Of a stretch of DNA of 64,000 bases, positions 1 through 15,453 are shown piece by piece. The stretch's first letter is position 1, and every line of letters starts with the position of its first letter. Source of the DNA: an uncultured Planctomycetales bacterium (GTDB taxonomy: Bacteria; Omnitrophota; Gorgyraeia; Gygaellales; Profunditerraquicolaceae); assembly GCA_964603585.1 (NCBI GenBank), contig CAZRVK010000002.1:115513-179512 (forward strand), written 5' to 3'. The notes beneath the pieces were generated by a model. That model worked only from the letters and a program-made list of their open reading frames with translations. It made no database searches and was not told the DNA's origin. Position numbers and translations under genes: made by a program.

Positions 1-10
1 AGCCGCGCCG

Positions 11-805
11 CTATATTATCCCTACTACCCTCGACCAGGCGGCACCGGTGTTCTTGATCTTTACCGGGAAACAAATCACTTTAAATCCATAATCCGGAAG
101 TTTCTCTAAATTAGCCAAACGTTCGATATGGATAAACTCCCTTTTCCTGCCATAAAAATGCGCCGGATAGAAATATTTAACATCTTTCTTTTCCATGAAG
201 TCTTTCAGCATAAATCGATAAGGCCGGTCAATCCCCATGGTATCTACCCCGAATATCTTGATCCCGCAATCCAATAAATAATCTATTGTTGAGGGATCTA
301 TCCCTGGGTAATCGGAAAAATATTTCGGAGAGCCATATAATTTATCCGCTCCAGTACGCAAAAGCACAATATCATTTTCCTTAAGGAAATAATTTATCTT
401 TTTAAGACAATTTGCGATATCTTCAGATTTAATGGTTTCATTTGGTTTTTTATGGGATAAATCCAGCTTAACCCCATCGGCATAACACCATTCAAGAGGA
501 ATTTCTTCTGCGGTTTTAGACAAACGATTCTCGGATTTCGATCCGTAATGGAATGAATAGTCCAGGTGAGTCCCGACATGTACTGGCGAATGCACTACTT
601 CCAGCGACAGGAATTCTTCATCGGGTAAATCCTCTTTTTTTACTATGCGCAATCCCAAGGCATATTGTAATTTCCCAACCCAGGTTTTCCCCATGATCAC
701 ACGGTTGAATTTCTCGACACCCGCCTTATGGCTGGTACGCTCGATTTCAACCTTATGCACTTCAAAGGCTTTTTCGTCAATGGGCAGACTTAAATCGATT
801 ATCAT
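11..805 (-). CDS. Cyclase-family protein (kynurenine formamidase-like metal-dependent hydrolase, PF04199-like); last gene of KS/ACP operon
   Basis: 264-aa ORF with an HxGTHxD-type motif (HVGTHLD) and the overall pattern of arylformamidase/putative-cyclase proteins. Its start lies 2 nt from the ACP stop. Confidence 0.6.
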   Translation of the reverse strand: MIIDLSLPIDEKAFEVHKVEIERTSHKAGVEKFNRVIMGKTWVGKLQYALGLRIVKKEDLPDEEFLSLEVVHSPVHVGTHLDYSFHYGSKSENRLSKTAEEIPLEWCYADGVKLDLSHKKPNETIKSEDIANCLKKINYFLKENDIVLLRTGADKLYGSPKYFSDYPGIDPSTIDYLLDCGIKIFGVDTMGIDRPYRFMLKDFMEKKDVKYFYPAHFYGRKREFIHIERLANLEKLPDYGFKVICFPVKIKNTGAAWSRVVGII

Positions 806-807
806 TC

Positions 808-1053
808 TTAAGCTATTTTGCTTTTAATGATACCCTCGATATCATTGATAGAGGAAAATTTGGTTACCTCCTGGGGAGAAAGTTTGGTGCCAAAGGCCTT
901 CTCCAGGGCAATCACAGATTCCACCATTTCGGTTGAATCAACCCCGATACTATCAGACAAAGAAAGGTCATCTTTTAATTCTTCGGGCTTAACCTTCAAT
1001 AAATTCACCAGGACATCTTTTATTTTACCCTTAATATCCATCATCCACCTCAC
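808..1053 (-). CDS. Acyl carrier protein
   Basis: Roughly 80 aa, with an LSDSIGVDS phosphopantetheine-attachment Ser motif and an acidic helical fold pattern. The real start may be the internal MMDIK methionine. Confidence 0.7.
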   Translation of the reverse strand: MRWMMDIKGKIKDVLVNLLKVKPEELKDDLSLSDSIGVDSTEMVESVIALEKAFGTKLSPQEVTKFSSINDIEGIIKSKIA

Positions 1054-1112: not shown

Positions 1113-2573
1113 CTAAATCTGCACCTCGCCTTTTGTAGCTGCAGCCTCCCATTTATTTATCCCGTTCATGACATCCTGAAAGCAAAGTTTTGCCAATATA
1201 TCAAAGTTGCTTTCCATGATCCGGTTGATCCTGCCGGGCTTTGAAAAGAACTCACGCATACACCAAGAACCCAGCCTCCCCAGATCTTCGGTAGTAAGAT
1301 GATCTGTCGGAATGACCGGATGCAAGAAATCCCAGGTGCTAAAATCAACTTTCTTGGTGTCGATCCAGTTTTTCTTCAAAGCAATTTTCCACATCGGGGA
1401 ATTCGGGGCCGGAGTAACATAACCTACCCACAAAACATCCGGATCAACCTGGTCGGTAAACTCAAACCGCTGTTTTATTATCTCCTCGGTATCATAATCA
1501 AAACCCATCATGATATCGGCAACTATGGCAATATCATGCTTTCTTAAAAGCTCAATGGTCTTTTTAATCTGCTCTATAGTTATACCTTTTGCGATCTTCT
1601 TCAACTCCGATTGAGTCGTCACCTCAATACCAAACACCCCCATAAACAGCCCGGTTTCTTTCATCAGCGGCAGCACGGATTCGCAATTAACCCAATCGAT
1701 CGCCCGGCCTAAAGAAACCCATTTGATATCGATCTTCTTTTGTTTCTTTAATTCGCAAAACCTCCTGACACGCGCAGGATCGACGTTAAAGTTATCATCC
1801 TGGATGACAACCACCTTAACCCCGTATTTATTCTGTAACAATTCCATCTCTTCAATTACGCGTTCCGGAGATTTAGCGCGCCATTTCAAGAAATCCGAAG
1901 GGCTCCTTGGGTCAAATTGATCCCACTCATAACAGAAGGTACAGGCCGAGGGACATCCGCGCGATGTCACCATATCCACAAACGGTTTCCAATAAGTATG
2001 CCCTACATATTTATCCATGGGGAATAAATCATATGCCGGTAACGGCAGCTTATCCAAATCTTCCATAAGAGGCTTATGCGGCCCCATCACGATCTGGCCG
2101 TCGATGCGCGAGGTAACTCCTCCCACATCCTTAAAATTCTTCTTCTTGTCGATCGCCTCGATCAAATCCCCAAAAGACTCTTCTTCCCCCATCACCACGA
2201 AATCCACCTCCGGATTCTCTTCCAGGGTATGCACAGGCATAGCAGAATACCATAAACCTCCAAGGATTATTTTTGTTTTAGGCAGTGCATGCTTGATCTT
2301 TACCGCAGCCTCTTTAAAATGCCGTAAAACTCCATATCCGCCATAACCATGCAGCTGCTCTCCCATTACCACGACATCAGGATTAATAGTCTTGACCTTC
2401 TCCACCAATTCATCCATTGGGATCTGATCGGCTTTGCCGTCGATCACTGCAACATCTTCATAGCCGCGCTGGCGGACATACGCTGCCCAATGGGCATAGA
2501 GCTGATTTGGCGAACGATGTATCCCATGTGTTGCCCATGCGCCAACTTTTGGCATAACAAACAAAATCTTCAT
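1113..2573 (-). CDS. B12-binding domain radical SAM protein
   Basis: 486 aa. The N-terminal half looks like a cobalamin-binding Rossmann domain, and the CPSACTFC sequence gives the CxxxCxxC radical SAM cluster motif. Its start overlaps the KS-beta stop by 4 nt. Confidence 0.8.
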   Translation of the reverse strand: MKILFVMPKVGAWATHGIHRSPNQLYAHWAAYVRQRGYEDVAVIDGKADQIPMDELVEKVKTINPDVVVMGEQLHGYGGYGVLRHFKEAAVKIKHALPKTKIILGGLWYSAMPVHTLEENPEVDFVVMGEEESFGDLIEAIDKKKNFKDVGGVTSRIDGQIVMGPHKPLMEDLDKLPLPAYDLFPMDKYVGHTYWKPFVDMVTSRGCPSACTFCYEWDQFDPRSPSDFLKWRAKSPERVIEEMELLQNKYGVKVVVIQDDNFNVDPARVRRFCELKKQKKIDIKWVSLGRAIDWVNCESVLPLMKETGLFMGVFGIEVTTQSELKKIAKGITIEQIKKTIELLRKHDIAIVADIMMGFDYDTEEIIKQRFEFTDQVDPDVLWVGYVTPAPNSPMWKIALKKNWIDTKKVDFSTWDFLHPVIPTDHLTTEDLGRLGSWCMREFFSKPGRINRIMESNFDILAKLCFQDVMNGINKWEAAATKGEVQI

Positions 2574-3817
2574 TTCTTTTCTCCTCTCTCAACCACTAAC
2601 ACCGAGTTAATCCCGCCCCTTCCGCGGGAAATAATTAACGCCTTATTTATTGGGTACTCCCTGGCCTGACCCCGGACATAATTCAGGCCGTTTAGATCCG
2701 GATCATCCAAATTCAAAGTCGGAGGTATCAAATTATGCTCCATGGATAGAAGGGCAATGATCAGATCCAGCGCACCGCTTGCCCCCAGAAGATTGCCAAA
2801 CATGGATTTAGGGCAAGTCGCCGGGACATCTTTGAGTTTAGGACCAAAAACCTTTCTTAAGGCATTTATTTCGCTTTGGTCCCAAATATCCACCGCTAAA
2901 CCATCCAAACTTATATAATCTATTTCCTCTTTGTTGGTTTTAGCGTCAGCCAAAGCCATTTCAATCGCGCGGGCCAATTGCTCGCCGGAGATATCCGGAT
3001 TAATCCGATCCACACCATCACAGGCCATGCCATAACCGGTAATATAGCCTAAAATATTCGCGCTGCGTGCACGTGCTCTTGATTCTGGCTCCATGACAAT
3101 GATCCCGGCTCCTTCGGCGATCACAAAACCATTACGCTTACGGTCAAATGGCCGATAAGCCTGTTCGGGATGTTCATTATCCTTGGAAAGTCCGCCGTAA
3201 GTATTACAGCACAATAAAGCGTATGGAGTAACCGGCGCTTCCATTCCTCCTCCCAGGATCATATTCAATTTCCCTTTAGCCAATGTTTTACGCGCATAGC
3301 CGAGGGCATCCGAAGAACTTGCCCGGTCAGCAACTATGGTCTTAGAAAAACCCTTGATCCCATAATAAATCGAAACCTGACCTTGAGGTGCAGCAGGAAA
3401 CCATGCAGAGGCCATATAGGGAGATACGCCTTCACGGCCCTCGATATACAAATCGCGCAGTTCTGTCTCGGCATAAAGCCAACCGCCTATAGCATTGCCT
3501 AAGAAGATCCCCACCTGGTTGGGATCTTCTTTTTTGATGTCGATCCCGGCATCGGCAAGCGCCAGCTCCGAAGCAATCAAAGCCATATGTGCAAAAGGAT
3601 CCATTTTTTTAAGCAGGCGCTCTGAAAAATTGCTGTATTTTTCCAAATCATCGATTTGCCCTGCAATATGCGAGGGGTATTTTGAAGCATCGAAACGGGT
3701 GATATTCTTTATAAACGACCTTCCGGATTTAATATTGGCCCAAAACTGCCTTCGGCCGATACCTGAAGGAGCCACAACCCCAATTCCTGTCACCGCAACC
3801 TTAGACATTTTATCCAC
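2570..3817 (-). CDS. Ketosynthase-like protein lacking the catalytic Cys/His/His (KS-beta / chain-length-factor-like)
   Basis: 415 aa with a thiolase/KS fold. The active-site Cys position reads DRASSSD, and both catalytic His positions are replaced (LDGLAVD and GNLLGASG). It overlaps the upstream KS gene by 8 nt. Confidence 0.75.
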   Translation of the reverse strand: MDKMSKVAVTGIGVVAPSGIGRRQFWANIKSGRSFIKNITRFDASKYPSHIAGQIDDLEKYSNFSERLLKKMDPFAHMALIASELALADAGIDIKKEDPNQVGIFLGNAIGGWLYAETELRDLYIEGREGVSPYMASAWFPAAPQGQVSIYYGIKGFSKTIVADRASSSDALGYARKTLAKGKLNMILGGGMEAPVTPYALLCCNTYGGLSKDNEHPEQAYRPFDRKRNGFVIAEGAGIIVMEPESRARARSANILGYITGYGMACDGVDRINPDISGEQLARAIEMALADAKTNKEEIDYISLDGLAVDIWDQSEINALRKVFGPKLKDVPATCPKSMFGNLLGASGALDLIIALLSMEHNLIPPTLNLDDPDLNGLNYVRGQAREYPINKALIISRGRGGINSVLVVERGEKK

Positions 3818-5072
3818 CGAACCTTTTTATAATTAATGCTGAATGTATCCCGGAGAAACCGCTCGAGGTTTTAATGATCATATCCACTTTTTTTTCACGT
3901 GCGACATTCGGTACATAATCCAAATCACATAACGGGTCTTTCTCCTCCTGATTGATTGTCGGAGGTAAAACATTCTTGGCAAAAATTTGAGAACAAACGG
4001 TTAATTCTACGGCATTAGCCGCCGCCAAAGGATGGCCGATCATAGACTTTAAGGAACTGGCGGGAAGTTTATACGCATAATCACCCCAAACCATTTTATA
4101 GGCTGCAGTCTCGAAAATATCATTCATTTTTGTAGAAGATCCGTGCGCATTGATATAATCTATATCATTGGGCCTGACTCCGGCGTCTTTGATCGCCAAA
4201 TTGATGCAATTGGCCATTGCCGTCCCATCGGCAGGCAAATCTGTCATATGAAATGCGTTGCAACTGGTGCCAAAACCAATCACCTCTGCGTAAATATGCG
4301 CATTACGTTTTAATGCATGATTTAGTTCTTCAAGAATCAGGATCCCCGCGCCTTCCGATAGAACAAAACCGTTCCGTTTTTTATCAAATGGCCGCGAAGC
4401 CTTCTCCGGGGATTCATTATTCACTCCTAAAACGCTGACTACGTCAAAGGCGCCAAAAGTGATAGGGGTTATCGGGGCCTCTGCCGCGCCACAGATCATG
4501 ACATCCTGCCCTCCATCCTGGATTACCTCCAAACCAAAACCCAAAGAATCGGTACCTGCGGTGCATCCGGTAGAAATAGTATTACAAACCCCTTTTAAAC
4601 CATAGCGGGCATTGACTTCAATGGATGGGGTATTAAACATCGCCGCATCATAAAGATCGGGCCTGACTTTCGCCGGATTGATCGGTTTTTTACCGTCATC
4701 GGTAACTAAAGCAAATTCCTCTTCCATGTATTTGGTCCCGCAAATCGCATTTGCCAGACAAACCCCGATACGTTCTACATCCTCCTTGGAAAAATCTATT
4801 TTACTGTCTTTAACCGCCATATCCGCAGCCACTACCCCGAACTGCACGTAACGGTCCATACGCACCGCTTCATCATGCGTCAGGCCTAATTTAAAGGGAT
4901 CAAAATCGCGGACTTCCGCGGCAATTTTAGTATGAAAAACCGATACATCGAAACTATCGACTAATCTTACCCCGGACTTCCCGCTGGCCATTGCCTGCCA
5001 CACATTATCCTTACCGATACCATTTGGAGAAACTACCCCTAACCCCGTGATCACTACACGCCTTTTATTCAT
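3810..5072 (-). CDS. Beta-ketoacyl-ACP synthase (FabF/KS-alpha-like, catalytically intact)
   Basis: Carries the active-site Cys (ISTGCTAGTDS) and both His motifs (AHGSSTKMND and GHPLAAANAVE). I placed the start at MNKRRVVITGLG, which has an AAAGGA RBS 9 nt upstream. The ORF track's longer N-terminus (to 5117) is probably spurious. Confidence 0.85.
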   Translation of the reverse strand: MNKRRVVITGLGVVSPNGIGKDNVWQAMASGKSGVRLVDSFDVSVFHTKIAAEVRDFDPFKLGLTHDEAVRMDRYVQFGVVAADMAVKDSKIDFSKEDVERIGVCLANAICGTKYMEEEFALVTDDGKKPINPAKVRPDLYDAAMFNTPSIEVNARYGLKGVCNTISTGCTAGTDSLGFGLEVIQDGGQDVMICGAAEAPITPITFGAFDVVSVLGVNNESPEKASRPFDKKRNGFVLSEGAGILILEELNHALKRNAHIYAEVIGFGTSCNAFHMTDLPADGTAMANCINLAIKDAGVRPNDIDYINAHGSSTKMNDIFETAAYKMVWGDYAYKLPASSLKSMIGHPLAAANAVELTVCSQIFAKNVLPPTINQEEKDPLCDLDYVPNVAREKKVDMIIKTSSGFSGIHSALIIKRFGG

Positions 5073-5131
5073 AAATAATCCTTTTTGAACTGTCACTTTA
5101 CAGCTTTTACCACACACTCACCATTAATTAA

Positions 5132-5725
5132 CTATTTATTCCCCTCTTCTACCCGTGTCACCTTAAACACAATATTCCCGCCATCCGGACAGGTGACCGT
5201 ATCAATCGCATTTGGATCAGGCATAAAGAAGAATTTTGCTCCAAAATTCAAAGCAAACAATGCCGGGAAAGCAGTATGGAATGCCGCGCCACAAAACCCG
5301 GGGATACATTTTAACCCGGTAGTCTCCCACTTATCTCCTACTTTATACCCATAGCTGCATTTACCTTGAGCTTTTACTACCTCAACGATCATTTTCTTAG
5401 GATTCGGGCCTTTGAAATCAGGATCCTTAGGCACTACCTCAACTTTTCCCTGCTTATCCAGGATCTCGGCCTTAAATTCCAGTTTTCCTCCATCGGGACA
5501 GGTCACAAGAAGAGAGCGTTGATTATCACGAAAAGGGAATTTCGCGCCAAAACTTAAAGCATAGATCACATTGAACAATGCATGCGCTAATCCCAGGCAA
5601 AAATGCTTCGGGGGATGAGTAAAATCATCCAGGACCAATTCATCGCCGATCTTATACCCATGGTAACAAACGCCCTCGACTTTTGTAACCGTAAGCTTTA
5701 ATTTCGGAAAAGGGGTATCGACCAT
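5132..5725 (-). CDS. Tandem-repeat Cys/His-rich protein (TIGR04076-like, function unknown)
   Basis: 197 aa built from two internally duplicated ~90-aa halves. Each half carries C-x-[YH]-G-Y-K-[IV]-G-D, C-x-G-x-A-[HF], FGAKF and TCPDGG motifs. Confidence 0.5.
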   Translation of the reverse strand: MVDTPFPKLKLTVTKVEGVCYHGYKIGDELVLDDFTHPPKHFCLGLAHALFNVIYALSFGAKFPFRDNQRSLLVTCPDGGKLEFKAEILDKQGKVEVVPKDPDFKGPNPKKMIVEVVKAQGKCSYGYKVGDKWETTGLKCIPGFCGAAFHTAFPALFALNFGAKFFFMPDPNAIDTVTCPDGGNIVFKVTRVEEGNK

Positions 5726-5726
5726 T

Positions 5727-6731
5727 TTAATTTACAAACTCCTCGGTTTCTTCGATTAACTCTTCGTGGCTCAAGAATTTATTGGTATTCTCAACCCGGT
5801 GCACCAACTCGACCATTTTTTCATTTAATGGCGCGTTTAAATTATGTTCTTTCGCCAAAACCACGAATTCACCGTTTATATAATCTATCTCGGAAGAACG
5901 CCCGCGCTTAATACTCTGTAAAATCGAGCCATATAAAGGTTCTTTGCTCAAATTAGTCATGATCCCGGATAGAACCTTCGCCGCTTCAAGAGTAGGCATC
6001 CCGGTAATATTCGTCACCCTCTCCAGAGGAAAATCCGGTAAAGAGACCAGATCTATACCACAGGCTTCCACAACTTGCAAACCTTCTTTCCAAAGGCAAA
6101 TACTCAACCGGCTAATGCCTAAATCGGAAAATGCCTCCTGCATGCTCTGGCCTAATACCGCAGGGATACAATTATTGGCGTTTACAAAGATCTTCAAATA
6201 TTTCATCCCCCGGATATCCTCTGCAACAATCGTGGGGAATATTTTATTTAATTCATTCGACACTTCTACGACCCGCGAGTCGTTTTTCCCAAAGGCCTTT
6301 CCAATGATCCAGCTTCCTTCAAAATTATGGATCACTTTCCCAGGATCCAAATAAGTAGCTCCAAACATAACGATACTGGAGATTATATTATCCCGAGGGA
6401 TATATTTAGCAGCCAGGGCATCGGATCTTATTCCATTCTGCGTGGTTAAAACCAATGCTCCTTTTAACAGATCCCGGTTATTCTCCAGCGCGCGTTCAAG
6501 ATCCTGCGTCTTTGTGGCCAAAATCGCCAGATCCGGCTGGATTTTTAATTCTACATCAATATCGATGGAAACCCTTGAACTGCCTCTTGGCCCAGTAAGT
6601 TCAATACCGTTTTCTTTAATTGCGCTAACTGAATCGATATTACCCACAAGCGATACATCTGTGTTCTTTAATTTAAGGTATGCGGCTACTAGATTACCGA
6701 TAGCCCCAGCACCGATAACCACGATTTTCAT
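5727..6731 (-). CDS. 2-dehydropantoate 2-reductase family (ApbA/PanE-like) NAD(P)-dependent reductase
   Basis: MKIVVIGAGAIGNLVAAYL Rossmann GxGxxG at the N-terminus and a 334-aa length typical of ketopantoate reductase-like proteins. Confidence 0.7.
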   Translation of the reverse strand: MKIVVIGAGAIGNLVAAYLKLKNTDVSLVGNIDSVSAIKENGIELTGPRGSSRVSIDIDVELKIQPDLAILATKTQDLERALENNRDLLKGALVLTTQNGIRSDALAAKYIPRDNIISSIVMFGATYLDPGKVIHNFEGSWIIGKAFGKNDSRVVEVSNELNKIFPTIVAEDIRGMKYLKIFVNANNCIPAVLGQSMQEAFSDLGISRLSICLWKEGLQVVEACGIDLVSLPDFPLERVTNITGMPTLEAAKVLSGIMTNLSKEPLYGSILQSIKRGRSSEIDYINGEFVVLAKEHNLNAPLNEKMVELVHRVENTNKFLSHEELIEETEEFVN

Positions 6732-7006
6732 TATTTAAAATTAGTGTTATTCTTAGGGAATCCGTACTTTTTATAATCAAAATCGCTTTGATCCAAAAGA
6801 CGGATCATCATGCTATAAAAAGGCGTGGGGACATCGGAGAAAAAAGCGTTGATCACATCCTGCTCTTCCACGGCCGGAGCCTTCCTTAAGGCAGCATTTT
6901 CTTCCGCGCGCTTAACAACCACTTCCTCGGTAATATGCCGGTGAAAAACCGGGATTTTCGCAATTAAAACATTGAATCTTTCCTTAACCGTAGGATCCCA
7001 ATCCAT
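6731..7006 (-). CDS. Small protein with a possible PCP_red-like (protochlorophyllide reductase B C-terminal-like) domain; first gene of the operon
   Basis: 91 aa. The segment AKIPVFHRHITEEVVVKRAEENAALRK resembles the PF08369 pattern as I remember it. Its stop overlaps the reductase start codon. Confidence 0.35.
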   Translation of the reverse strand: MDWDPTVKERFNVLIAKIPVFHRHITEEVVVKRAEENAALRKAPAVEEQDVINAFFSDVPTPFYSMMIRLLDQSDFDYKKYGFPKNNTNFK

Positions 7007-7139
7007 TTTTACCCCCGCTAACTGAATATAGTAAAATTTTACTATTCAAATTTTACATATTATACCTGAAGACTACTATTTATGTCAAGAAGATTTTATA
7101 AAAGATGTAAAGCGCTTTTGAATATTGATGTTACGAACT

Positions 7140-7634
7140 TTACCGGTAATTGCAGAAGCCAAGAGGCAAAGAGAAATCCAGTGTTTTTAGATGTATGATC
7201 ACAGCCTGTAAATCATCCTTTTTCGGAGCAGAAACCCTAAGTTTATCCCCTTCGATCTGGGTCTGGACTTTAAGACCCAAACCTTTAATAATCCCGGTCA
7301 ATTCCTTGGCTTTTTCTTTATCTATGCCGATAGATAACTCTGCCAACTGGCGTAAAGTCCCTTCAAACGCCTTTTCCGGATCTTTGAACTTTAATGATTT
7401 AAGGGAAATCCCCCTTTTAGCCAAACGCGTAGCCAGGATATCCTTTAAAGCGCGTAATTTGAAGTCATCATCAGCAATAATGGTGATGCTTTTTTTATCC
7501 CGGTCATATTCCAACGATGACTTGCTATCCTTAAAGTCATACCGCTGGGCCAGCTCTTTTTTGGCTTGATTGACCGCATTATCCACTTCCTGCAAGTCAA
7601 CCTCGGAAACTATATCAAAGGAAAAGTTAGCCAT
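7140..7634 (-). CDS. yajQ: YajQ family cyclic di-GMP-binding protein (UPF0234)
   Basis: 164 aa with the N-terminus MANFSFDIVSEVDLQEVDNAVNQAKKELAQRYDFK, which is characteristic of YajQ. Confidence 0.9.
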   Translation of the reverse strand: MANFSFDIVSEVDLQEVDNAVNQAKKELAQRYDFKDSKSSLEYDRDKKSITIIADDDFKLRALKDILATRLAKRGISLKSLKFKDPEKAFEGTLRQLAELSIGIDKEKAKELTGIIKGLGLKVQTQIEGDKLRVSAPKKDDLQAVIIHLKTLDFSLPLGFCNYR

Positions 7635-7660
7635 GGAGACATTTAACCTCTGCGAACGGA

Positions 7661-8203
7661 TTATTTCAAATAAGCCTTAATGATCTTCTGTTCAGTAACC
7701 GGCTTATCCTGCGCACCAACCGGGGTATTTTCGATCTTTTCTACCACATCATACCCGGCAACGACTTCGCCAAAAATGGTATGGCGCATATTCAACCAGG
7801 GAGTTTTGGCGGTAGTGATAAAAAACTGGCTGCCATTCGTACCGGGCCCGGCATTGGCCATTGCCAATAATCCGGTTTTATCAAATTTTAAAACCGGAGT
7901 AACTTCATCTTCAAAAGGCTGGCCCCAGATAGAATCCCCTCCCATGCCTGTGCCGGTAGGATCCCCGCCCTGGATCATAAAACCCTTGATCACCCGGTGA
8001 AAAATGATCCCATTGTAATAACCTTTTTCTACGAGCTTCGTAAAGTTTTCGCAGGTTTTAGGGGCAAGATCAGGGAAAAGTTTTATTTCTATAGCGCCTT
8101 GCGTCGTCTCTAAGATCACGTTTTTGTTACTCATATTAAGCTCCTCTCCATATACACTGCTGACAAAAATTAAAGCAAGAAATACCCCCAGTAATTGTTT
8201 CAT
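7661..8203 (-). CDS. Peptidyl-prolyl cis-trans isomerase, cyclophilin type, secreted
   Basis: N-terminal signal peptide, then the [15 protein letters not shown]...GTGMGG cyclophilin core. Confidence 0.9.
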
Positions 8204-8231
8204 CTCTCCTCCGCATTTAATAGATAAAAGC

Positions 8232-8486
8232 CTACGATGATAATTCTACAACCTTTATTTTAAGGCCAGAAACCTTCTTTAAGGCGGCAGAAAAACCCTT
8301 CTTCTCCTTATCTGAACCCACTATCTCTAAGATTATCAATCCGGTATCCGAACATTTATCTAAGACACCGTCGTGAATACCCAGACGGGTTTTCACAATA
8401 CAGCCGAAATCGGTAAGCACCTTCTGGAAATTTACTGCCGCGCTGCGCCTTTTTTTCAAAACCGCCACTACAACCGTTCTTTTCAT
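8232..8486 (-). CDS. Hypothetical small protein (ACT/PII-like?)
   Basis: 84-aa ORF with good coding context. I cannot place it in a family. Confidence 0.3.
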
Positions 8487-8529
8487 CTTAACCCCCTCCT
8501 CGACAATTCCGCGTTTCTGCTACTTGGAT

Positions 8530-8895
8530 TTAAAAAAGCGCCTCGGAAGATATACTTTTATAATACCCCATTATTTTCTCTAAGGCTTTTGCCGTCATCA
8601 CCGTTAATACCACCGTCAGAATAACAGCTATCGCAGTAATAATTATTTTACTTTTGGCGCTAAAACGCGGGTTGCTCCACAACAAAGGAAGGGCAAAAGG
8701 CCCGATCGCCAGAAAAGAAATAATCAGGGTGGAGTTTCTTTGATACCATTTAACCTGTCGAGGTAAGTGCGGCACAGCCCCGACAAGGAATTCATTACAG
8801 TAGCGGCACTTAACGGCGTCCTCCTGTAGTGATTCCGCACAAAACGGGCAGTTTTTCATAAAGCTTAGTATACTTACCGGATAAATCCCGGTCAA
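8530..8895 (-). CDS. Zinc-ribbon domain membrane protein
   Basis: CPFC...CRYC zinc ribbon at the N-terminus followed by 2 to 3 hydrophobic helices. Confidence 0.5.
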   Translation of the reverse strand: MTGIYPVSILSFMKNCPFCAESLQEDAVKCRYCNEFLVGAVPHLPRQVKWYQRNSTLIISFLAIGPFALPLLWSNPRFSAKSKIIITAIAVILTVVLTVMTAKALEKIMGYYKSISSEALF

Positions 8896-8946
8896 GGATT
8901 ATTATATCTGCATTGCCAATTGCGTTCTTTGGCCATTAGGCGCAGG

Positions 8947-9243
8947 TCATGTAACCTCTTCGATCGGCAAGATAAAAGCCTTGATCCCTTCTTTGCCTAA
9001 TTTCTTTCTTAACTCTTTTATCCCGGACACTAATTTAGCGGCTTCAGGGGAAGTGCATGAGATGTAAAGCAGATTATTCCTGCCCGGCCAGATATCATTC
9101 CCCAGGTGCGTACCGGAACTCTGCCCCTTGCCATAAGTACCAACGATCTTCGTGTAGTTAGTTATGGCCAAATTAGATAAAAGCTCCATAGCTTCTATAT
9201 CAATTGCTTCGTTATAAGAGATCATAACCATTTTTAGGTTCAT
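8947..9243 (-). CDS. Small PII-like/DUF3240-like protein encoded downstream of the RND pump
   Basis: 98 aa. Its start overlaps the RND permease stop by 4 nt, and this position and size are typical of czcA/acrB-associated PII-like proteins. Confidence 0.35.
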   Translation of the reverse strand: MNLKMVMISYNEAIDIEAMELLSNLAITNYTKIVGTYGKGQSSGTHLGNDIWPGRNNLLYISCTSPEAAKLVSGIKELRKKLGKEGIKAFILPIEEVT

Positions 9244-12200
9244 TTTTTTGTCCCCTGATTCTTAATTTGTACGCTGCTTAAATCTTTCCCCTTCTGTTTA
9301 CGGTGGAATATAGCATACATCGTCGGCACAAAGAACATGGTGATCAAAGTCGACACGGTCAACCCCCCGATCATAGTGATCCCCAGAGGCTGCCAGGTCT
9401 CTGAACCTTCTCCCCGGGATAAAGCCAATGGCAAAAGCCCAACCAGTGTGGTAATAGTAGTCATCAGCACAGGCCTTAACCTCTCTCTGCCTCCTACAGT
9501 AACGGCTTCGTACATGGAAAACCCTCTTGCGCGTAAGATATGAATATAACTCACCAAAACTATGGCATTATTAACCACGATCCCCATCAACATCACTATG
9601 CCTAAGAAAGTCACTACGCTCAAGGTCGTACCTGTAGTAACAAAACCCAAAATAACCCCGATAAAAGTGAATGGTATCGCAAACATGATGATAAACGGAT
9701 CTAATAATGACTCGAATTGTGCCGCCATCACCATATAAACCAACGCGATCCCCATGATCAATAAAAGCGTGAGATCCTTAAAAGCCTTGCGTTGTTCTTC
9801 CGCCTCTCCACCCAGATTAAATGATATATCCGCGGGAACAGCTATTTTATCCAGTTCTTTCTTGAAATCCTCAACGATCTTTCCTGATGAACGCTTATAA
9901 GCGTTGCACTCAACCTTTACGACTCGTTCACGGTTCTTGCGGTCGATCTCCTGCGGTCCGGGAGATTCGTAGATTTTTGCGATATTGGCTAACTGGACCG
10001 GTTTTCTAACTACCCCTTTTATCTGTGCCAATTCGGCTAATGCGCCAAAAGAAGTTTTATCTTCCGGTAATGGTGGCAGAATTGATAAATTCTCGATATC
10101 CTCAATCTTTGCCCGGGAGGTATCTTCCAGCCGGACATAAATATCGTAGGTTTTACCTTTTTCCCGGTATTTAGTGGCGGTTGTCCCTTGAATAAAAGTT
10201 TTCAGGGTATCAGCGATAGTGTTCATATCCAAACCCAAAGCAGAGGCTTTTACCCTGTCTACTTCGATTTTCAGTTCCGGACGATTGAATTCACGGGAAA
10301 TGCTTACATCTACTGCTCCAGGGACATTCTCGAGTATTGCCTTTACCTTTTGGGCCAAAGCATCGGTTTCTTCAAAAGAATGGCCAATAATCTCTAATTG
10401 TATGCTTTTTCCCCCTCCTCCGGTAATTAACCTGCCGATCGGGTTCCCGGAAGAAACATCGGTTTTAATCACTCCCGGGATCAACTGTATATTGCGCCTC
10501 AACGCTTGAGCTACTTCGGAAACAGAACGCTTTCTTTCTGTTTTTACTACGAGTTTTACCCCGGCTGTGACAATATGCGTACCCGAGACATTCCCAAAAG
10601 CCCTGCCGATGCCGGGGATATTACCGCTTCGGACGTAGAAATACCTGGCTTCAGGGACTTCCTTATTAAACATCTCTTCGATCCTTTGCGCTACTTTATC
10701 GGTCTCTTCAACCCGCGTGCCGATAGGCAGGTTTACGGTAATCCGGACATCACCGGTGTCTTCTTCAGGTATAAATTCATTGCCCACAAATTTGGTCAGG
10801 GCTAAAGTAACGATAAAGGCGGCGAAAAACCCGATAACAATGACATTCTTATGCCTAAGTGCCCAGCCCAAGGAACGCCCGTAAAAAGCTTCCATCGCGC
10901 TAAACCACCGCTCGGACAAGTCATAAAATTTACTACTTTTCTTTTGCGTGCCATTTTGCGCAAAATTCAGCTTAAGCCATTTAGAGCACAACATTGGACT
11001 GAAAGTCGCTGCGGTAAAAAGCGAGGCTACCAAAGTCACAATAACAATTACCGCCAGTTCCCCGAATATTACCCCTACCACTCCCGGGATAAAAAGCATC
11101 GGCATAAATACTACTACCGTAGTTAAAGTAGAAGCGGCTACAGCCAAAAACATTTCAGAGGCTCCAAAGATCGAGGCTTCTTGCGGGCGTTCTCCTTTTT
11201 CGAAATGCCGGTAAACATTATCCACTATTACGATCGCGTTATCTACGACCATGCCGGAAGCAATGGCCAAAGAAGAAAGGCTGATAGTGTTAATAGTCTT
11301 GCCGCTTAAAAAAAGATAGATAAAACTGATTAACAGGGAAAAAGGAATAGTCAATGCGATGATCATGCTCGGGGCGAATTGACGCAAGAAAAACCATACC
11401 ACCAGGATCACCAGCAGAACCGCTAACCATACCGATGATGAAAGCGATTTCAACGAAACAATGATATCCTCCGAAGTATCGAATATCTTGATCATCTTGA
11501 CATCAGAAGGAAGTGTCTTTTTTAACTCATTCAGCCTTTTATGAACACGCCGCGCAACCTCCACAGCATTAGTGCCGCTTTGTTTCTGTATCATCATCGT
11601 CAATCCCGGCTTTCGATCAATGCGCACCAGTGTGGTTATTTCTTTAAAACCATCCTCGATCCTGGCCACATCCTTGAGATAGACAAACCCCTGGTCACGC
11701 CTGCCTAAAATAACTGTATTGATCTCTTCCGGAGTAGCAAATTCTCCGGGCAGACGGATCAAATAATCCGTAAGCCCCGATTTAATACTGCCTACGGGCT
11801 GGGTCACATTCTCCTGCTTCAATACATTCTGAATATCGAGTATGGAAAAACCATAACCTTCCAACCGTTGTTTATCAACCCAAATATTGATTTGCCGCTC
11901 CAATCCCCCCCCCTGGAACTGGACTGTGCCGACTCCTGGAAGCTGGCGCAGGGCGTCGCCGATCCTTTTATCGATCAAATCATAAAGTTCAGTATAGGTT
12001 TGTTCGGCGGTAAAACCGATAAAAAGGATCGGGATATTGGAAGTGTTAAATTTAAAAATAAACGGGTTCTCCATCTCCTCGGGGATATCCGGCAGGAGGC
12101 GTTTGGCCAATTCAATCCGATCACGGATATCATTGGAGGCTTCATCCAAATTAGTCCCCCAAACAAATTTTAAGGAAATCACCGATACCCCCTCGGAAGA

Positions 12201-12449
12201 AGAGGAGGTGATCTTTTCCAATCCCGGGGTAGTGGCGAGCTGATTCTCCAATTCCTCTGTCACTTTGATCTCAACATCCTCCGGACTTGCTCCGGGATAA
12301 GTAGAAATCACGCTGATAACCGGGGGTTCAATCTCGGGGAAGCTATCTATACCTAACCGCGATAGGCTATAAAAGGCCAAAAGTACGATCGAAGCAAAGA
12401 TCATTAAATTAGTAACCGGCCTTTTTACGCCAAATTCCGGTAAATTCAT
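9240..12449 (-). CDS. Efflux RND transporter permease subunit (AcrB/CzcA family)
   Basis: 1069 aa with 12 TM segments and two large periplasmic loops. The HAE-RND signature regions are present. Confidence 0.95.
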   Translation of the reverse strand: MNLPEFGVKRPVTNLMIFASIVLLAFYSLSRLGIDSFPEIEPPVISVISTYPGASPEDVEIKVTEELENQLATTPGLEKITSSSSEGVSVISLKFVWGTNLDEASNDIRDRIELAKRLLPDIPEEMENPFIFKFNTSNIPILFIGFTAEQTYTELYDLIDKRIGDALRQLPGVGTVQFQGGGLERQINIWVDKQRLEGYGFSILDIQNVLKQENVTQPVGSIKSGLTDYLIRLPGEFATPEEINTVILGRRDQGFVYLKDVARIEDGFKEITTLVRIDRKPGLTMMIQKQSGTNAVEVARRVHKRLNELKKTLPSDVKMIKIFDTSEDIIVSLKSLSSSVWLAVLLVILVVWFFLRQFAPSMIIALTIPFSLLISFIYLFLSGKTINTISLSSLAIASGMVVDNAIVIVDNVYRHFEKGERPQEASIFGASEMFLAVAASTLTTVVVFMPMLFIPGVVGVIFGELAVIVIVTLVASLFTAATFSPMLCSKWLKLNFAQNGTQKKSSKFYDLSERWFSAMEAFYGRSLGWALRHKNVIVIGFFAAFIVTLALTKFVGNEFIPEEDTGDVRITVNLPIGTRVEETDKVAQRIEEMFNKEVPEARYFYVRSGNIPGIGRAFGNVSGTHIVTAGVKLVVKTERKRSVSEVAQALRRNIQLIPGVIKTDVSSGNPIGRLITGGGGKSIQLEIIGHSFEETDALAQKVKAILENVPGAVDVSISREFNRPELKIEVDRVKASALGLDMNTIADTLKTFIQGTTATKYREKGKTYDIYVRLEDTSRAKIEDIENLSILPPLPEDKTSFGALAELAQIKGVVRKPVQLANIAKIYESPGPQEIDRKNRERVVKVECNAYKRSSGKIVEDFKKELDKIAVPADISFNLGGEAEEQRKAFKDLTLLLIMGIALVYMVMAAQFESLLDPFIIMFAIPFTFIGVILGFVTTGTTLSVVTFLGIVMLMGIVVNNAIVLVSYIHILRARGFSMYEAVTVGGRERLRPVLMTTITTLVGLLPLALSRGEGSETWQPLGITMIGGLTVSTLITMFFVPTMYAIFHRKQKGKDLSSVQIKNQGTKK

Positions 12450-13351
12450 TTTAAACCATTCTCCTGTTCAATGCTGACGACGGCATTATCATAAAGTTTT
12501 TGTTGGCCCATGATCACAACCATATCCCCGGATTTTACACCTTTTAGAACCTCCAAATACCCTCCCTGGCGAATACCCGCAACAACGTTACGCAAAACCG
12601 CCTTTTGGTTCTCTATTACATAAACAAAATTATTGGGTTCTTTCCCCAGTATAGCTTCTTTTAAAACTACAGGTATATTCTTATGCTGCTGCAAAATTAA
12701 ACTGACCCTGGCAAACATCCCAGATTTTAATTTCCCCCCCTGATTATCCACAGTAATCTGGATTGGGGCGGACCGGGTAGATAAATCTACTACCGGACTG
12801 ATTTTCGTTACTTTCCCCGGAAACTCATCCTGCGGGTAAGCATCCACGGTGATCATGGCCTCCTGGCCCAACAAAACCCGCGATAAATACTTTTCCGGGA
12901 CATCCAAATCTATTTTGACCTTCTCCATATTCACCACCAAAGCTATCGATGTATCAGGTCCGACAAGCTGCCCGATATCCGCGTAAAACCTCCCCACAAT
13001 CCCGCTCAAAGGGCTTTCTACCGGAGCCTTTTCAAATTTCAGCCCTACCTCATCACGGTCAATATAAGCAATGGCTTCGCCCTTCTTCACTACTGCCCCG
13101 TCCTCCTTAGACTTTTCGATCACCTTTCCGCTGACCTTAGGATAAACTATTGCTTCATCCTGGGCCTTGATATTGCCCACATATTCGATCACCTCATTTA
13201 AATCGCTTAAAACTATTTTGACTGCTTTAACAGGGATTATCTCCTGCGGCTTTTTCGTCTCTTGTTTATTTTGACAACCTAATAAAGGCGTAAAGAGCAA
13301 GGATACGCATATAAATATTGAGATTTGTTTTGGCTTGAAATTTGACATCAA
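12446..13351 (-). CDS. Efflux RND periplasmic adaptor (membrane fusion protein), lipoprotein
   Basis: Lipobox LLGC, then biotinyl-lipoyl and beta-barrel MFP domains. It overlaps the RND gene by 4 nt. Confidence 0.85.
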   Translation of the reverse strand: MMSNFKPKQISIFICVSLLFTPLLGCQNKQETKKPQEIIPVKAVKIVLSDLNEVIEYVGNIKAQDEAIVYPKVSGKVIEKSKEDGAVVKKGEAIAYIDRDEVGLKFEKAPVESPLSGIVGRFYADIGQLVGPDTSIALVVNMEKVKIDLDVPEKYLSRVLLGQEAMITVDAYPQDEFPGKVTKISPVVDLSTRSAPIQITVDNQGGKLKSGMFARVSLILQQHKNIPVVLKEAILGKEPNNFVYVIENQKAVLRNVVAGIRQGGYLEVLKGVKSGDMVVIMGQQKLYDNAVVSIEQENGLK

Positions 13352-14646: not shown

Positions 14647-15098
14647 TTGTTATCCAAATTATCTTCGAGAAGAATATCTTTTATCCTAGTTAAAATCCGC
14701 AGATACTGTCTTCGATCTTCCGCCGATATAGCGCTGAATATCCTAATCAGCATCCGGCGCTTGTGCTGGTTAATCTCCTTAACCAAGGTATTGCCCTCTG
14801 CAGTCAATCTAACTTTTATGATCCGCCTATCATTATTGTCAAAAACCCGCACCAGATACCCATCCCTGACCAGGCGGTCTACGATCCCGGTCATAGCCGC
14901 AGTGGTTACATTCATAAAATGCGCCAAATCCGACATATTAGACTGGCCGTTAGAATGTAAAAAACCCAGGATCAGGAATTGCGGCAGGGTGATCTTGCCC
15001 TTGAATTCCTGCATATGCCGGCGGGAGAATTCTTTCATGATCACCGGCATTATCTCATTCATTTTATCGGCGAATTCCGATAAGGAAGATTCAGACAA
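14643..15098 (-). CDS. MarR family transcriptional regulator
   Basis: Winged-helix sequence LAHFMNVTTAAMTGIVDRLVRDGYLVRVFDNNDRR. It is the first gene of the efflux operon. Confidence 0.85.
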   Translation of the reverse strand: MSESSLSEFADKMNEIMPVIMKEFSRRHMQEFKGKITLPQFLILGFLHSNGQSNMSDLAHFMNVTTAAMTGIVDRLVRDGYLVRVFDNNDRRIIKVRLTAEGNTLVKEINQHKRRMLIRIFSAISAEDRRQYLRILTRIKDILLEDNLDNK

Positions 15099-15192
15099 TA
15101 TTCAACCTCCTAAATAGTTAATGTTGTTAACTATAAATCATATTAAGTTTATCCCCAAAAAGCAAGAAAGTCAAGGAAAATATGCGGATAGG

Positions 15193-15453
15193 TCAAACGG
15201 CTGGATGGATGAAAAGTTTACGCAGGCTTAAAAACCATACGAACCCAAAGAATACCGAGAAAACTATAAGAAATACCCCCATAATCCTGGTATTTCGTAA
15301 TTCTTTAGGCATCGAGATTGGCTCAACCCGCCAATTAATTTGCGCATAGAAGATTCTTTGCATTTCTATCGCCAGTGCAGGAAAAATAACCAAAAAACAT
15401 CCAAAAGATAAATTCAATAAACCGACTATAATAATGCCAATAGAGACTATCAT
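15193..15453 (-). CDS. Small membrane protein (PadR-associated)
   Basis: 86 aa with two TM helices. Its start overlaps the PadR stop. Confidence 0.3.
   Translation of the reverse strand: MIVSIGIIIVGLLNLSFGCFLVIFPALAIEMQRIFYAQINWRVEPISMPKELRNTRIMGVFLIVFSVFFGFVWFLSLRKLFIHPAV

What the first reader, a model, noticed from the sequence alone, without database searches (positions are those of the whole stretch)
5132..5725. Internally duplicated Cys/His-rich protein of unknown function inside the KS/ACP operon
The 197-aa protein is two ~90-aa repeats, each with C-x-[YH]-G-Y-K-[IV]-G-D, C-x-G, FGAKF and TCPDGG motifs. This matches what I recall of the uncharacterised TIGR04076 family. The conserved Cys/His spacing suggests metal or Fe-S binding, or a double hot-dog/dehydratase-like fold substituting for the missing DH. 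Its fixed position between the reductase and the KS pair argues for a direct biosynthetic role.
Basis: partly seen in the sequence, partly recalled or inferred. Interest (0 to 1): 0.6.

Follow-up and report, generated by a model that had tools for sequence, protein, structure and literature searches.

The report
Tandem TIGR04076 subunit of anaerobic PKS
This gene encodes a duplicated, cysteine-bearing protein of an uncharacterised family (TIGR04076) that is a fixed and unusually conserved part of an oxygen-independent aromatic polyketide gene cluster in Omnitrophota, and related domains are fused to the carrier protein or the reductase of similar clusters in other anaerobes, so it is probably an unrecognised working part of these synthases.

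Summary
Window 5132-5725, on the minus strand, encodes a 197-aa protein made of two about 90-aa repeats (38% identical, E=3e-18). It scores 96 bits against NCBIfam TIGR04076 (cut-off 33). Family-wide, only three Cys per repeat are invariant; the His residues are not. AlphaFold gives a confident model (pLDDT 94.5, pTM 0.90) with a beta-beta-alpha-beta-beta unit repeated twice. It has no significant PDB match and is not a hot-dog fold. In all 80 Omnitrophota species loci fetched, wherever the contig reaches, the gene sits in one co-directional cluster: small protein, ApbA reductase, TIGR04076x2, KS-alpha, KS-beta, B12-radical SAM, ACP, then cyclases. This is an aromatic type II PKS, so no dehydratase is missing. 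TIGR04076x2 and the B12-rSAM are the most conserved proteins of the cluster and co-vary. The domain is fused to ApbA twice independently. It is fused to the PKS ACP in Clostridium beijerinckii and a Bacillota MAG, and it occurs as two split genes elsewhere. A non-PKS subfamily lies beside an HdrD/DsrK-like oxidoreductase. Best reading (about 0.35): a Cys3 metal site, probably Fe-S, in an accessory subunit serving the ACP-linked anaerobic tailoring enzymes. The function is untested.

The parts
5132..5725 (-). TIGR04076 tandem-domain protein, 197 aa (the finding)
   Evidence: ORF and translation; TIGR04076 96 bits vs cut-off 33, 2 stretches; AF2 pLDDT 94.5, pTM 0.90
5456..5704 (-). Repeat 1 (aa 8-90): beta-beta-alpha-beta-beta with invariant C20, C43, C76
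   Evidence: It is orthologous to a separate 101-aa gene in L175: 49% to repeat 1 against 39% to repeat 2
5147..5398 (-). Repeat 2 (aa 110-193): beta-beta-alpha-beta-beta with invariant C123, C145, C179
   Evidence: It is orthologous to a separate 98-aa gene in L175 (56% against 36%) and closest to the ACP-fused and stand-alone PKS-linked single domains
5727..6731 (-). ApbA/PanE-family NAD(P)H reductase, 334 aa, ending 1 nt upstream of the finding
   Evidence: PF02558 + PF08546; TIGR00745 169 bits. It is fused in frame to TIGR04076x2 in L088 and to TIGR04076 in P0127, with different linkers
6731..7006 (-). 91-aa first gene of the operon, weak DUF2621 match
   Evidence: PF11084 E=4.6e-5, below the gathering score. 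Present in 73 of 80 loci. It co-varies with KS-alpha and KS-beta
7059..7088 (-). Promoter-like site TTGACA-18-TATAAT (12/12) upstream of the operon
   Evidence: This is a consensus match only
3810..5117 (-). KS-alpha with intact Cys-His-His
   Evidence: PF00109/PF02801; alignment of catalytic positions
2570..3817 (-). KS-beta / chain-length-factor-like partner, catalytically dead (Cys->Arg, His->Asp, His->Asn)
1113..2573 (-). B12-binding radical SAM enzyme (BchE/HpnJ-like, below every equivalog cut-off)
   Evidence: PF02310 + PF04055; BchE 220 bits vs 481, ladderane model 82.5 vs 360. Its distances co-vary with those of TIGR04076x2
808..1053 (-). Acyl carrier protein, 81 aa
   Evidence: PF00550; GVDSTEM motif
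11..805 (-). PF04199 (OxyN/ActIV-type) cyclase; the cluster continues beyond the window edge in relatives

Best explanation
SHOWN. The gene encodes a tandem TIGR04076 protein, a pseudo-heterodimer of two anciently diverged beta-beta-alpha-beta-beta domains. Each domain carries three invariant cysteines. The protein is a fixed and strongly constrained component of an 'ancestral-type' aromatic type II polyketide synthase cluster in anaerobic Omnitrophota. Homologous domains in other anaerobes are fused to the PKS acyl carrier protein or to the ApbA-family reductase, or sit between KS-beta and ACP. INFERRED. Each Cys3 triad holds a metal centre, most probably an oxygen-sensitive iron-sulfur cluster. 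The protein then works as a dedicated accessory (redox-partner) subunit. It docks at the ACP-tethered intermediate and serves the oxygen-independent tailoring enzymes of the cluster. Foremost among these is the B12-radical SAM enzyme, which needs low-potential electrons for its [4Fe-4S] cluster and its cobalamin. It also associates physically with the ApbA reductase. It is not a dehydratase.
For: Family and anatomy: TIGR04076 at 96 bits. The only family-wide invariant side chains are 3 Cys per domain, with the third usually in a C-P-D knuckle. The rest of the conserved positions are Gly or Pro, and there is no conserved acid/base residue. This is the pattern of a cofactor-holding module rather than of an acid-base catalyst. 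The Cys lie in confidently modelled loop and helix-start positions.
Link to the PKS: order and strand are identical in the 80 species-level Omnitrophota loci wherever the contig reaches. Further PKS clusters hold stand-alone, split or fused TIGR04076 domains.
Fusions: TIGR04076-ACP in C. beijerinckii and in a Bacillota MAG. There are two independent ApbA-TIGR04076 fusions.
Constraint: median identity to the window protein is 85%, against 59.5% for ApbA, 71% for ACP and 80% for KS-alpha. It stays at 86-87% in L047 and L067, where the rest of the cluster is 39-73% identical.
Coupling to the rSAM: distance matrices over 48 loci correlate best with the B12-rSAM (r=0.86, partial 0.77). Without the three outlier loci the values are r=0.56 and partial 0.40, and the rSAM is the best partner in 211 of 300 bootstraps. 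The KS-alpha/KS-beta control gives partial 0.79 and 0.51. B12-rSAM genes also flank TIGR04076 in the P0182 cluster and in L174.
Redox company outside PKS: 18 of 40 scorable loci of the generic subfamily have a NarI-like + 2x[4Fe-4S] + 2xCCG (HdrD/DsrK-like) protein directly upstream. P0153 fuses three TIGR04076 repeats to DUF362 and a 2x[4Fe-4S] ferredoxin domain.
Distribution: every named source is an anaerobe. These are Omnitrophota, Clostridium, Bacillota, Dehalococcoidales, a Deltaproteobacteria MAG, Lokiarchaeota, Bilophila and Methanobrevibacter. There was no hit in 72,556 plasmids.
Against: No metal or cluster has been measured, and I could not read the model coordinates, so clustering of the three Cys in space is unverified. 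There is no canonical Fe-S motif (no CxxCxxC...CP). Three Cys would equally fit Zn. An electron-carrier role does not by itself explain fusion to ACP. ApbA-type reductases carry no flavin, so NAD(P)H to Fe-S electron transfer through ApbA is unlikely. The C. beijerinckii and Bacillota clusters contain TIGR04076 but no radical SAM gene within 10 kb. The Omnitrophota paralogue P0121 (57% identical) lies outside any PKS cluster. The co-variation signal weakens a good deal once the three divergent loci are removed, and it could reflect shared history rather than contact. The AF2 model of the ACP fusion did not resolve any docking (pTM 0.58).
Confidence: 0.35

Rival explanations
1. Non-redox adaptor or scaffold. 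The Cys3 sites bind structural zinc. The domain is a protein-protein interaction module that recognises the ACP and recruits it, with its tethered poly-beta-ketone, to the tailoring enzymes (B12-rSAM, ApbA reductase) or to KS-alpha/KS-beta. This would be analogous in logic to small partner proteins such as MbtH-like or LYR-type ACP binders.
For: Fusion to ACP and to ApbA. Position between KS-beta and ACP in L174. Co-variation with the rSAM. Only Cys, Gly and Pro are conserved. Very high sequence constraint over the whole surface, as expected for a hub with several partners.
Against: It does not explain the recurrent HdrD/DsrK-like neighbour or the DUF362-ferredoxin fusion. It also does not explain restriction to anaerobes, since a zinc site would have no oxygen problem. 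AF2 did not dock ACP onto the domain, although the ACP alignment was very shallow.
Confidence: 0.25
2. Catalytic metal centre acting on the polyketide. The open coordination site of a Zn ion, or the unique Fe of a 3-Cys [4Fe-4S] cluster (as in IspH, NadA and aconitase-type enzymes; recalled from established knowledge, not tested here), binds a carbonyl or hydroxyl of the ACP-bound chain. It would catalyse dehydration, reductive dehydroxylation or cyclisation after reduction by the fused or adjacent ApbA reductase. This is a 'KR + metal-dehydratase' pair, the nearest surviving form of the first reader's idea.
For: Three rather than four invariant Cys. ApbA-TIGR04076 fusions and constant adjacency. 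ACP fusion places the domain next to the substrate. Restriction to anaerobes.
Against: No conserved general acid/base or substrate-binding residues. The domain is only about 90 aa. The same domain occurs beside respiratory-type oxidoreductases with no acyl chemistry. The aromatic type II pathway already has KR, aromatase and cyclases.
Confidence: 0.12
3. Thiol, persulfide or cofactor carrier. The cysteines are themselves redox-active or sulfur-carrying, as in DsrC for DsrK or the conserved Cys of the XdhC N-domain. The protein would shuttle reducing equivalents, sulfur or a cofactor.
For: The DsrMK/HdrDE-like neighbour. A CMD/AhpD-family gene lies next to TIGR04076 in the P0182 cluster and sits within the C. 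beijerinckii and Bacillota clusters. The only recurring fold hit is the N-terminal domain of XdhC-family chaperones: 3on5 at prob 0.91, rmsd 3.9 A over 97 columns, E=0.24, and also 2we7. That family has a conserved, functionally unexplained Cys and a following Rossmann-like domain (PMC2997495).
Against: The Foldseek E-values are not significant. There is no Pfam XdhC_CoxI hit in 114 members, and hhalign against E. coli PaoD gives probability 0.4%. The Cys sit in the ordered core rather than on a flexible arm.
Confidence: 0.1
4. Double hot-dog dehydratase replacing a missing DH.
For: Two repeats, each with one long helix packed on a sheet. Position in a KS/ACP operon.
Against: The topology is beta-beta-alpha-beta-beta in about 90 aa, not a hot-dog fold. 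Hot-dog chains appear only at E=5.6-6.3 and TM 0.13 or less. No FabA/FabZ/MaoC family hit. No invariant His/Asp pair. The cluster is an aromatic PKS with aromatase and cyclases, so no DH is missing.
Confidence: 0.02

Closest known systems
NCBIfam TIGR04076 (uncharacterised family; 'uncharacterized repeat protein' in IMG)
   Same: Passes the model with two full-length domain matches. It has the three invariant Cys and the G-x-C-x-x-G-[HY]-K-x-G-D ... C-P-D pattern of the family.
   Different: Most members are single 85-100-aa domains. This one is a fused hetero-pair whose halves are orthologous to two separate genes in L175. It belongs to a PKS-linked subfamily. No function is published; two papers mention the family only in passing.
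'Ancestral' non-actinomycete aromatic type II PKS clusters (ant / den / pcy / clostridial clr type: KS-CLF-ACP-TcmN-OxyN)
   Same: KS-alpha with a Cys-His-His triad, a dead KS-beta, an ACP and a PF04199 (OxyN-type) cyclase. Relatives add an SRPBCC (TcmN-type) cyclase, an SDR ketoreductase and an Amidohydro_2 (PMC7693217).
   Different: It carries three extra conserved genes that are not part of the described minimal or ancestral sets: the ApbA reductase, TIGR04076x2 and a B12-radical SAM enzyme. There is also a DUF2621-like first gene. KS-beta has Arg rather than Gln at the Cys position.
XdhC/CoxI-family N-terminal domain (Moco-insertion chaperones; PDB 3on5, 2we7)
   Same: It is the only recurring structural neighbour. 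Both are small Cys-bearing domains that work together with a Rossmann-type domain (PMC2997495 for XdhC).
   Different: The E-values are not significant. There is no sequence or profile similarity. XdhC has one conserved Cys, not three, and the domain order relative to the Rossmann module is reversed.
Hot-dog fold dehydratases (FabA/FabZ, MaoC; double hot-dog DH)
   Same: Internal duplication, and a helix packed on an antiparallel sheet.
   Different: Different strand order and size. No significant fold or family match and no catalytic dyad.
Small cysteine or Fe-S partner proteins of HdrD/DsrK-type CCG oxidoreductases (for example DsrC with DsrMK)
   Same: The generic TIGR04076 subfamily lies directly downstream of a NarI-like + Fer4 + CCG protein in 18 of 40 loci.
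   Different: No homology to DsrC. The Cys are in the structured core. The window's protein is in a PKS operon, not beside such an enzyme.

Membership tests
TIGR04076 (NCBIfam) | Whole-protein HMM score at or above the curated cut-off (33 bits) | tested here: met
   96 bits, E=1.4e-27, two stretches; best stretch aa 110-193 on profile positions 2-90 of 91
TIGR04076 (NCBIfam) | About 90-aa domain with three invariant Cys (after strand 1, at the start of the helix, after strand 3) | tested here: met
   C20/C43/C76 and C123/C145/C179 are invariant in alignments of 28 and 114 family members; secondary structure
Hot-dog fold dehydratase | Hot-dog fold: a long central helix wrapped by a 5-6-stranded antiparallel sheet | tested here: not met
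   The model is beta-beta-alpha-beta-beta per repeat. The hot-dog chains in Foldseek score E=5.6-6.3 and TM 0.13 or less
Hot-dog fold dehydratase | Family HMM match (FabA/FabZ/MaoC) and a conserved His + Asp/Glu catalytic pair | tested here: not met
   No such Pfam or NCBIfam hit for the protein or for 114 relatives. No invariant His, Asp or Glu
Iron-sulfur (ferredoxin-like) protein | Conserved set of Cys ligands | tested here: inconclusive
   Three invariant Cys per domain, the third in a C-P motif. There is no canonical CxxCxxC...CP motif and no Fer4 family hit. The spatial proximity of the Cys could not be read from the model
Iron-sulfur (ferredoxin-like) protein | Bound Fe-S cluster | not testable with these tools
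   Needs anaerobic purification with metal analysis and spectroscopy
XdhC_CoxI N-terminal domain (PF02625) | Family HMM or profile similarity | tested here: not met
   No PF02625 hit in 114 members. hhalign of the family profile against E. coli PaoD gives probability 0.4%
XdhC_CoxI N-terminal domain (PF02625) | Same fold | tested here: inconclusive
Aromatic type II PKS cluster (context of the gene) | KS-alpha with Cys-His-His, plus a KS-beta lacking the catalytic Cys, plus a discrete ACP | tested here: met
   The ACP has the DS phosphopantetheine-attachment motif
Aromatic type II PKS cluster (context of the gene) | Dedicated cyclase/aromatase genes | tested here: met
   A PF04199 cyclase lies in the window at 11-805. 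The SRPBCC cyclase and the KR lie just beyond the window edge in 40+ syntenic relatives
Ladderane-type lipid cluster (TIGR04072 rSAM_ladder_B12) | The radical SAM enzyme reaches the equivalog cut-off (360 bits) | tested here: not met
   82.5 bits. Automated tools report 'ladderane' clusters in Omnitrophota (PMC9902471), but I did not check whether this locus is one of them

The most novel reading that the evidence does not exclude
TIGR04076 is a previously unrecognised class of Cys3 metal-cluster domain. It would be an obligatory, ACP-associated component of oxygen-independent aromatic polyketide synthases, the partner that lets B12-radical SAM and reductive tailoring act on ACP-tethered intermediates. 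Its omission would then help to explain why anaerobe type II PKSs are hard to reconstitute. The extreme conservation of the whole cluster across Omnitrophota would point to a core physiological product, such as a membrane redox carrier, rather than an antibiotic.
Probability: 0.22. Interest if true: 0.8.

Novelty: new variant of a known kind. Interest (0 to 1): 0.62.

Why it matters
Type II polyketide synthases are textbook systems whose part list (KS-alpha, KS-beta, ACP, KR, cyclases) is considered complete. Here an uncharacterised domain with no solved structure is the most constrained protein of such a cluster, together with a B12-radical SAM enzyme, in the 80 species genomes examined. It recurs in at least six differently organised PKS clusters of anaerobes. 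In Clostridium beijerinckii, the species from which clostrubin was isolated, it is part of the same polypeptide as the PKS carrier protein. That gives a direct handle on what an orphan family does and on how aromatic polyketides are tailored without oxygen. The conservation also raises the question of what metabolite almost all of these Omnitrophota make.

Tried and rejected

Sequence searches. Sequence and profile searches of PDB found nothing. The collagen IV NC1 match at E=0.03 has per-domain scores near zero, and I treat it as chance. Pfam on the protein and on 114 relatives gave only a spurious beta-defensin match below the cut-off.

Structure prediction. The model of the TIGR04076-ACP fusion was confident only for the TIGR04076 half (pTM 0.58), so it says nothing about docking.

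XdhC lead. hhalign against E. coli PaoD was negative.

Locus scans. The metagenome scan with the whole-family alignment failed because the alignment was too diverse, so I redid it with one subfamily. tblastn against plasmids gave no hit.

Readings rejected. I rejected a ladderane cluster because the rSAM is far below the TIGR04072 cut-off. I rejected a FAS-type DH substitute because the cluster is an aromatic PKS.

Not verified. I could not confirm from open literature that locus L171 is the published clostrubin (clr) cluster.

Full report
1. THE OBSERVATION

Window 5132-5725 holds an ATG-initiated ORF of 197 codons on the minus strand. Its two halves align at 38% identity over 88 residues with E=3e-18. 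Both halves carry C-x-[YH]-G-Y-K-[IV]-G-D, FGAKF and TCPDGG.

NCBIfam TIGR04076 matches at 96 bits against a cut-off of 33, in two stretches. Pfam has no model for the family. No PDB chain is related by sequence or by profile. In the searchable literature the family name appears in only two papers, both without functional data.

2. ANATOMY

I aligned close homologues, distant tandem homologues, 114 mixed members and 61 single-domain members. The only invariant side chains are three cysteines per domain: C20/C43/C76 and C123/C145/C179. The remaining conserved positions are Gly and Pro, plus an Asp in the common C-P-D motif.

AlphaFold2 with the 114-sequence alignment gives a confident model (pLDDT 94.5, pTM 0.90). 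Each repeat is strand-strand-helix-strand-strand. The Cys sit after strand 1, at the N-terminus of the helix and just after strand 3. I could not read the coordinates, so spatial clustering of the triad is inferred, not shown.

Foldseek against PDB finds nothing significant; the best hit has E=0.38 and TM 0.27 or less. Hot-dog proteins appear only at E above 5.

A second model, of a single TIGR04076 domain naturally fused to an ACP, again puts two XdhC-family chaperones (3on5, 2we7) on top for the TIGR04076 half. 3on5 scores prob 0.91 and rmsd 3.9 A over 97 columns, but E=0.24. Neither Pfam nor hhalign against E. coli PaoD supports homology. This remains a lead only. The more sensitive fold libraries were unavailable.

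3. GENOMIC CONTEXT IN THE WINDOW

The gene is the third in a co-directional, tightly packed operon. The operon is preceded by a 12/12 sigma-70-like promoter at 7088..7059. The gene order is as follows:
- a 91-aa DUF2621-like protein;
- an ApbA/PanE-family reductase, whose stop lies 1 nt before the TIGR04076 start;
- TIGR04076x2;
- KS-alpha with an intact Cys-His-His triad;
- KS-beta, which is catalytically dead (Cys->Arg, His->Asp, His->Asn);
- a B12-binding radical SAM enzyme (BchE/HpnJ-like, below all equivalog cut-offs);
- an ACP;
- a PF04199 cyclase.

The window ends there. Relatives continue with an SRPBCC cyclase/aromatase, sometimes an MFS transporter, an SDR ketoreductase, a 139-aa unknown protein and an Amidohydro_2 protein. 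This is the gene content of an aromatic type II PKS of the 'ancestral' KS-CLF-ACP-TcmN-OxyN kind described for ant, den and pcy (PMC7693217). No dehydratase is 'missing'. GC content matches the surrounding window, and there is no second TIGR04076 copy in the window.

4. CONSERVATION

The protein database returns 841 homologues. The best 120 are 80-88% identical, and nearly all of those carrying a source name come from Omnitrophota MAGs. In the species-representative genome set, 272 genomes encode a relative, and the best 80 are distinct species loci at 76-90% identity. Most record titles say Omnitrophota; about 18 are labelled Planctomycetales, Planctomycetia or Patescibacteria.

ORF calling and BLAST show the same gene order and strand in every one of these 80 loci, as far as each contig reaches.

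Median identity to the window's proteins:

| Protein | Median identity (%) |
|---|---|
| B12-rSAM | 88 |
| TIGR04076x2 | 85 |
| KS-alpha | 80 |
| KS-beta | 77.5 |
| cyclase | 77 |
| ACP | 71 |
| 91-aa protein | 67 |
| ApbA | 59.5 |

In two divergent clusters (L047, L067) most of the other proteins drop to 39-65% (cyclase 71-72%, B12-rSAM 73%). TIGR04076x2 nevertheless stays at 86-87%.

5. CO-VARIATION

I computed pairwise distance matrices for eight cluster proteins over 48 complete loci.
- TIGR04076x2 correlates best with the B12-rSAM (r=0.86; partial r=0.77 after removing the common signal). With every other protein the partial r is 0 or below.
- The obligate KS-alpha/KS-beta heterodimer serves as a positive control (r=0.95, partial 0.79).
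- Without the three most divergent loci the values fall to r=0.56 and partial 0.40, against 0.79 and 0.51 for the control. The rSAM remains the best partner in 211 of 300 bootstraps.

The two genes are not adjacent, so simple linkage does not explain this. I regard it as suggestive, not conclusive.

6. FUSIONS AND OTHER CLUSTERS

A search of 1.84 billion cluster representatives finds only 285 families at E of 1e-3 or better. Most are single about 90-aa domains, some are tandem, and some have 3-4 repeats. The informative architectures are these:
- (a) ApbA-TIGR04076 fusions occur in L088 (a 534-aa ORF) and in P0127. They are in frame and have unrelated linkers, so they are two independent events.
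- (b) TIGR04076-ACP fusions occur in a Bacillota MAG (P0166) and in Clostridium beijerinckii (P0342). Both lie in KS-alpha, KS-beta, [TIGR04076-ACP], cyclase, SRPBCC, PPTase, CMD, DUF362, DUF169 clusters that also hold a second, stand-alone TIGR04076 gene.
- (c) L174 has KS-alpha, KS-beta, TIGR04076, ACP, B12-rSAM, B12-rSAM. This is the unfused equivalent of (b).
- (d) L175 has ApbA, TIGR04076 (101 aa), TIGR04076 (98 aa), KS-alpha, KS-beta. The first gene is orthologous to repeat 1 and the second to repeat 2 of the window protein. The tandem protein is therefore a fused hetero-pair.
- (e) P0182 lies next to a CMD gene and two B12-rSAM genes in another type II PKS cluster.
- (f) P0153 has three repeats fused to DUF362 and a 2x[4Fe-4S] domain.

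There is also a counter-example. P0121, an Omnitrophota tandem paralogue at 57% identity, is not in a PKS cluster.

7. THE NON-PKS SUBFAMILY

I fetched 80 metagenome loci for the commonest single-domain subfamily. In 18 of the 40 loci with a scorable same-strand upstream neighbour, that neighbour is an about 700-aa protein. It combines a NarI-like membrane domain, a 2x[4Fe-4S] domain and two CCG domains, which is an HdrDE/DsrMK-type oxidoreductase.

All organisms named by any source are anaerobes. No hit occurs in 72,556 plasmids.

8. INTERPRETATION

Shown: this is a TIGR04076 hetero-tandem that is a fixed, highly constrained component of anaerobic aromatic type II PKS clusters. It is physically joined in some lineages to the ACP and in others to the ApbA reductase.

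Inferred: several features point to a cofactor-holding module rather than an acid-base catalyst. These are the Cys3-only conservation, the C-P knuckle, the restriction to anaerobes, the redox-enzyme neighbours and fusions, and the co-variation with an enzyme that needs low-potential electrons.

My best single reading is an Fe-S-type accessory or redox-partner subunit that works at the ACP for the B12-rSAM and the reductive tailoring steps (confidence about 0.35). The rivals are:
- a zinc-stabilised ACP adaptor (0.25);
- a Lewis-acid catalytic centre paired with ApbA (0.12);
- a thiol, persulfide or cofactor carrier of XdhC/DsrC logic (0.10);

The weak points of my reading are stated in the explanation section. 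No metal evidence exists. The ACP and ApbA fusions are not explained by electron transfer alone. The clostridial clusters have no radical SAM gene nearby.

9. NOVELTY

The family itself is catalogued, so the protein is formally a member of a known but functionally blank family. I could not find the following described in the searchable literature: its systematic association with anaerobic type II PKSs, the ACP and ApbA fusions, the split and fused hetero-pair forms, the co-variation with the B12-rSAM, and the HdrD-like partner of the sister subfamily. I rate it a new variant of a known kind of system, namely a type II PKS with an extra, unexplained core subunit. Interest: 0.62.

Noticed in passing
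window 6731-7006 (-): A 91-aa DUF2621-like protein is the conserved first gene of the operon, present in 73 of 80 loci. Its distance matrix co-varies with KS-alpha and KS-beta (partial r 0.65 and 0.63), nearly as strongly as the two KS subunits do with each other. It may be a third partner of the KS heterodimer.
   Followed up: partly
window 2570-3817 (-): The KS-beta/CLF-like subunit has Arg at the active-site Cys position, not the Gln recalled for actinomycete CLFs, and has Asp and Asn in place of the two catalytic His. Decarboxylative priming by the CLF may therefore differ here.
   Followed up: partly
window 1-805 and beyond the window start: The cluster is cut by the window and contig edge. 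Syntenic relatives continue with an SRPBCC cyclase, sometimes an MFS transporter, an SDR ketoreductase, a 139-aa protein with no family and an Amidohydro_2 protein (a possible aromatic-acid decarboxylase). A PNP_UDP_1 (MqnB-like) gene lies close by in L003 and L008. The product is unknown; cluster-wide conservation across the phylum suggests a core metabolite.
   Followed up: partly
L047 and L067 (10001-10585): In two divergent versions of the cluster (KS-alpha 64-65%, ACP 46-47%, ApbA 44-47% identical to the window), the TIGR04076x2 protein is still 86-87% identical. In L008, with similar KS divergence, it is only 54% identical. This points to gene replacement or to extreme constraint.
   Followed up: partly
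L171 (C. beijerinckii GCA_013296325.1, 7460-19671): In the type II PKS locus of Clostridium beijerinckii, the ACP next to KS-beta carries an N-terminal TIGR04076 domain, and a second 96-aa TIGR04076 gene lies in the same cluster. The cluster also holds CMD, DUF362 and DUF169 genes of unknown role. I could not verify whether this is the published clostrubin (clr) cluster.
   Followed up: partly
L091-L170 (for example L147 3849-5963): The commonest single-domain TIGR04076 subfamily sits directly downstream of an about 700-aa NarI-like + 2x[4Fe-4S] + 2xCCG (HdrDE/DsrMK-like) membrane oxidoreductase in 18 of 40 scorable metagenome loci. Paralogous TIGR04076 genes are adjacent in several others.
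   Followed up: partly
window 1113-2573 (-): The B12-radical SAM enzyme is the most conserved protein of the cluster (median 88%). It scores only 82.5 bits against the ladderane model TIGR04072 (cut-off 360). Published 'ladderane' cluster calls in Omnitrophota (PMC9902471) may include loci like this one and may be mislabels, but I did not check this.
   Followed up: no
L006 (10001-10636): An Omnitrophota tandem TIGR04076 paralogue (P0121, 57% identical) lies outside any PKS cluster, near a Fic-domain gene and a MiaB-like radical SAM gene. The tandem form is therefore not exclusive to PKS operons.
   Followed up: no
window 7140-16909 (-): Upstream of the operon are ordinary genes: YajQ, a secreted cyclophilin, a MarR-regulated RND efflux system (OEP, MFP, 1069-aa pump), a PadR regulator and AccA. 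Gene order upstream of the PKS operon differs between relatives (L003 compared with L004).
   Followed up: no
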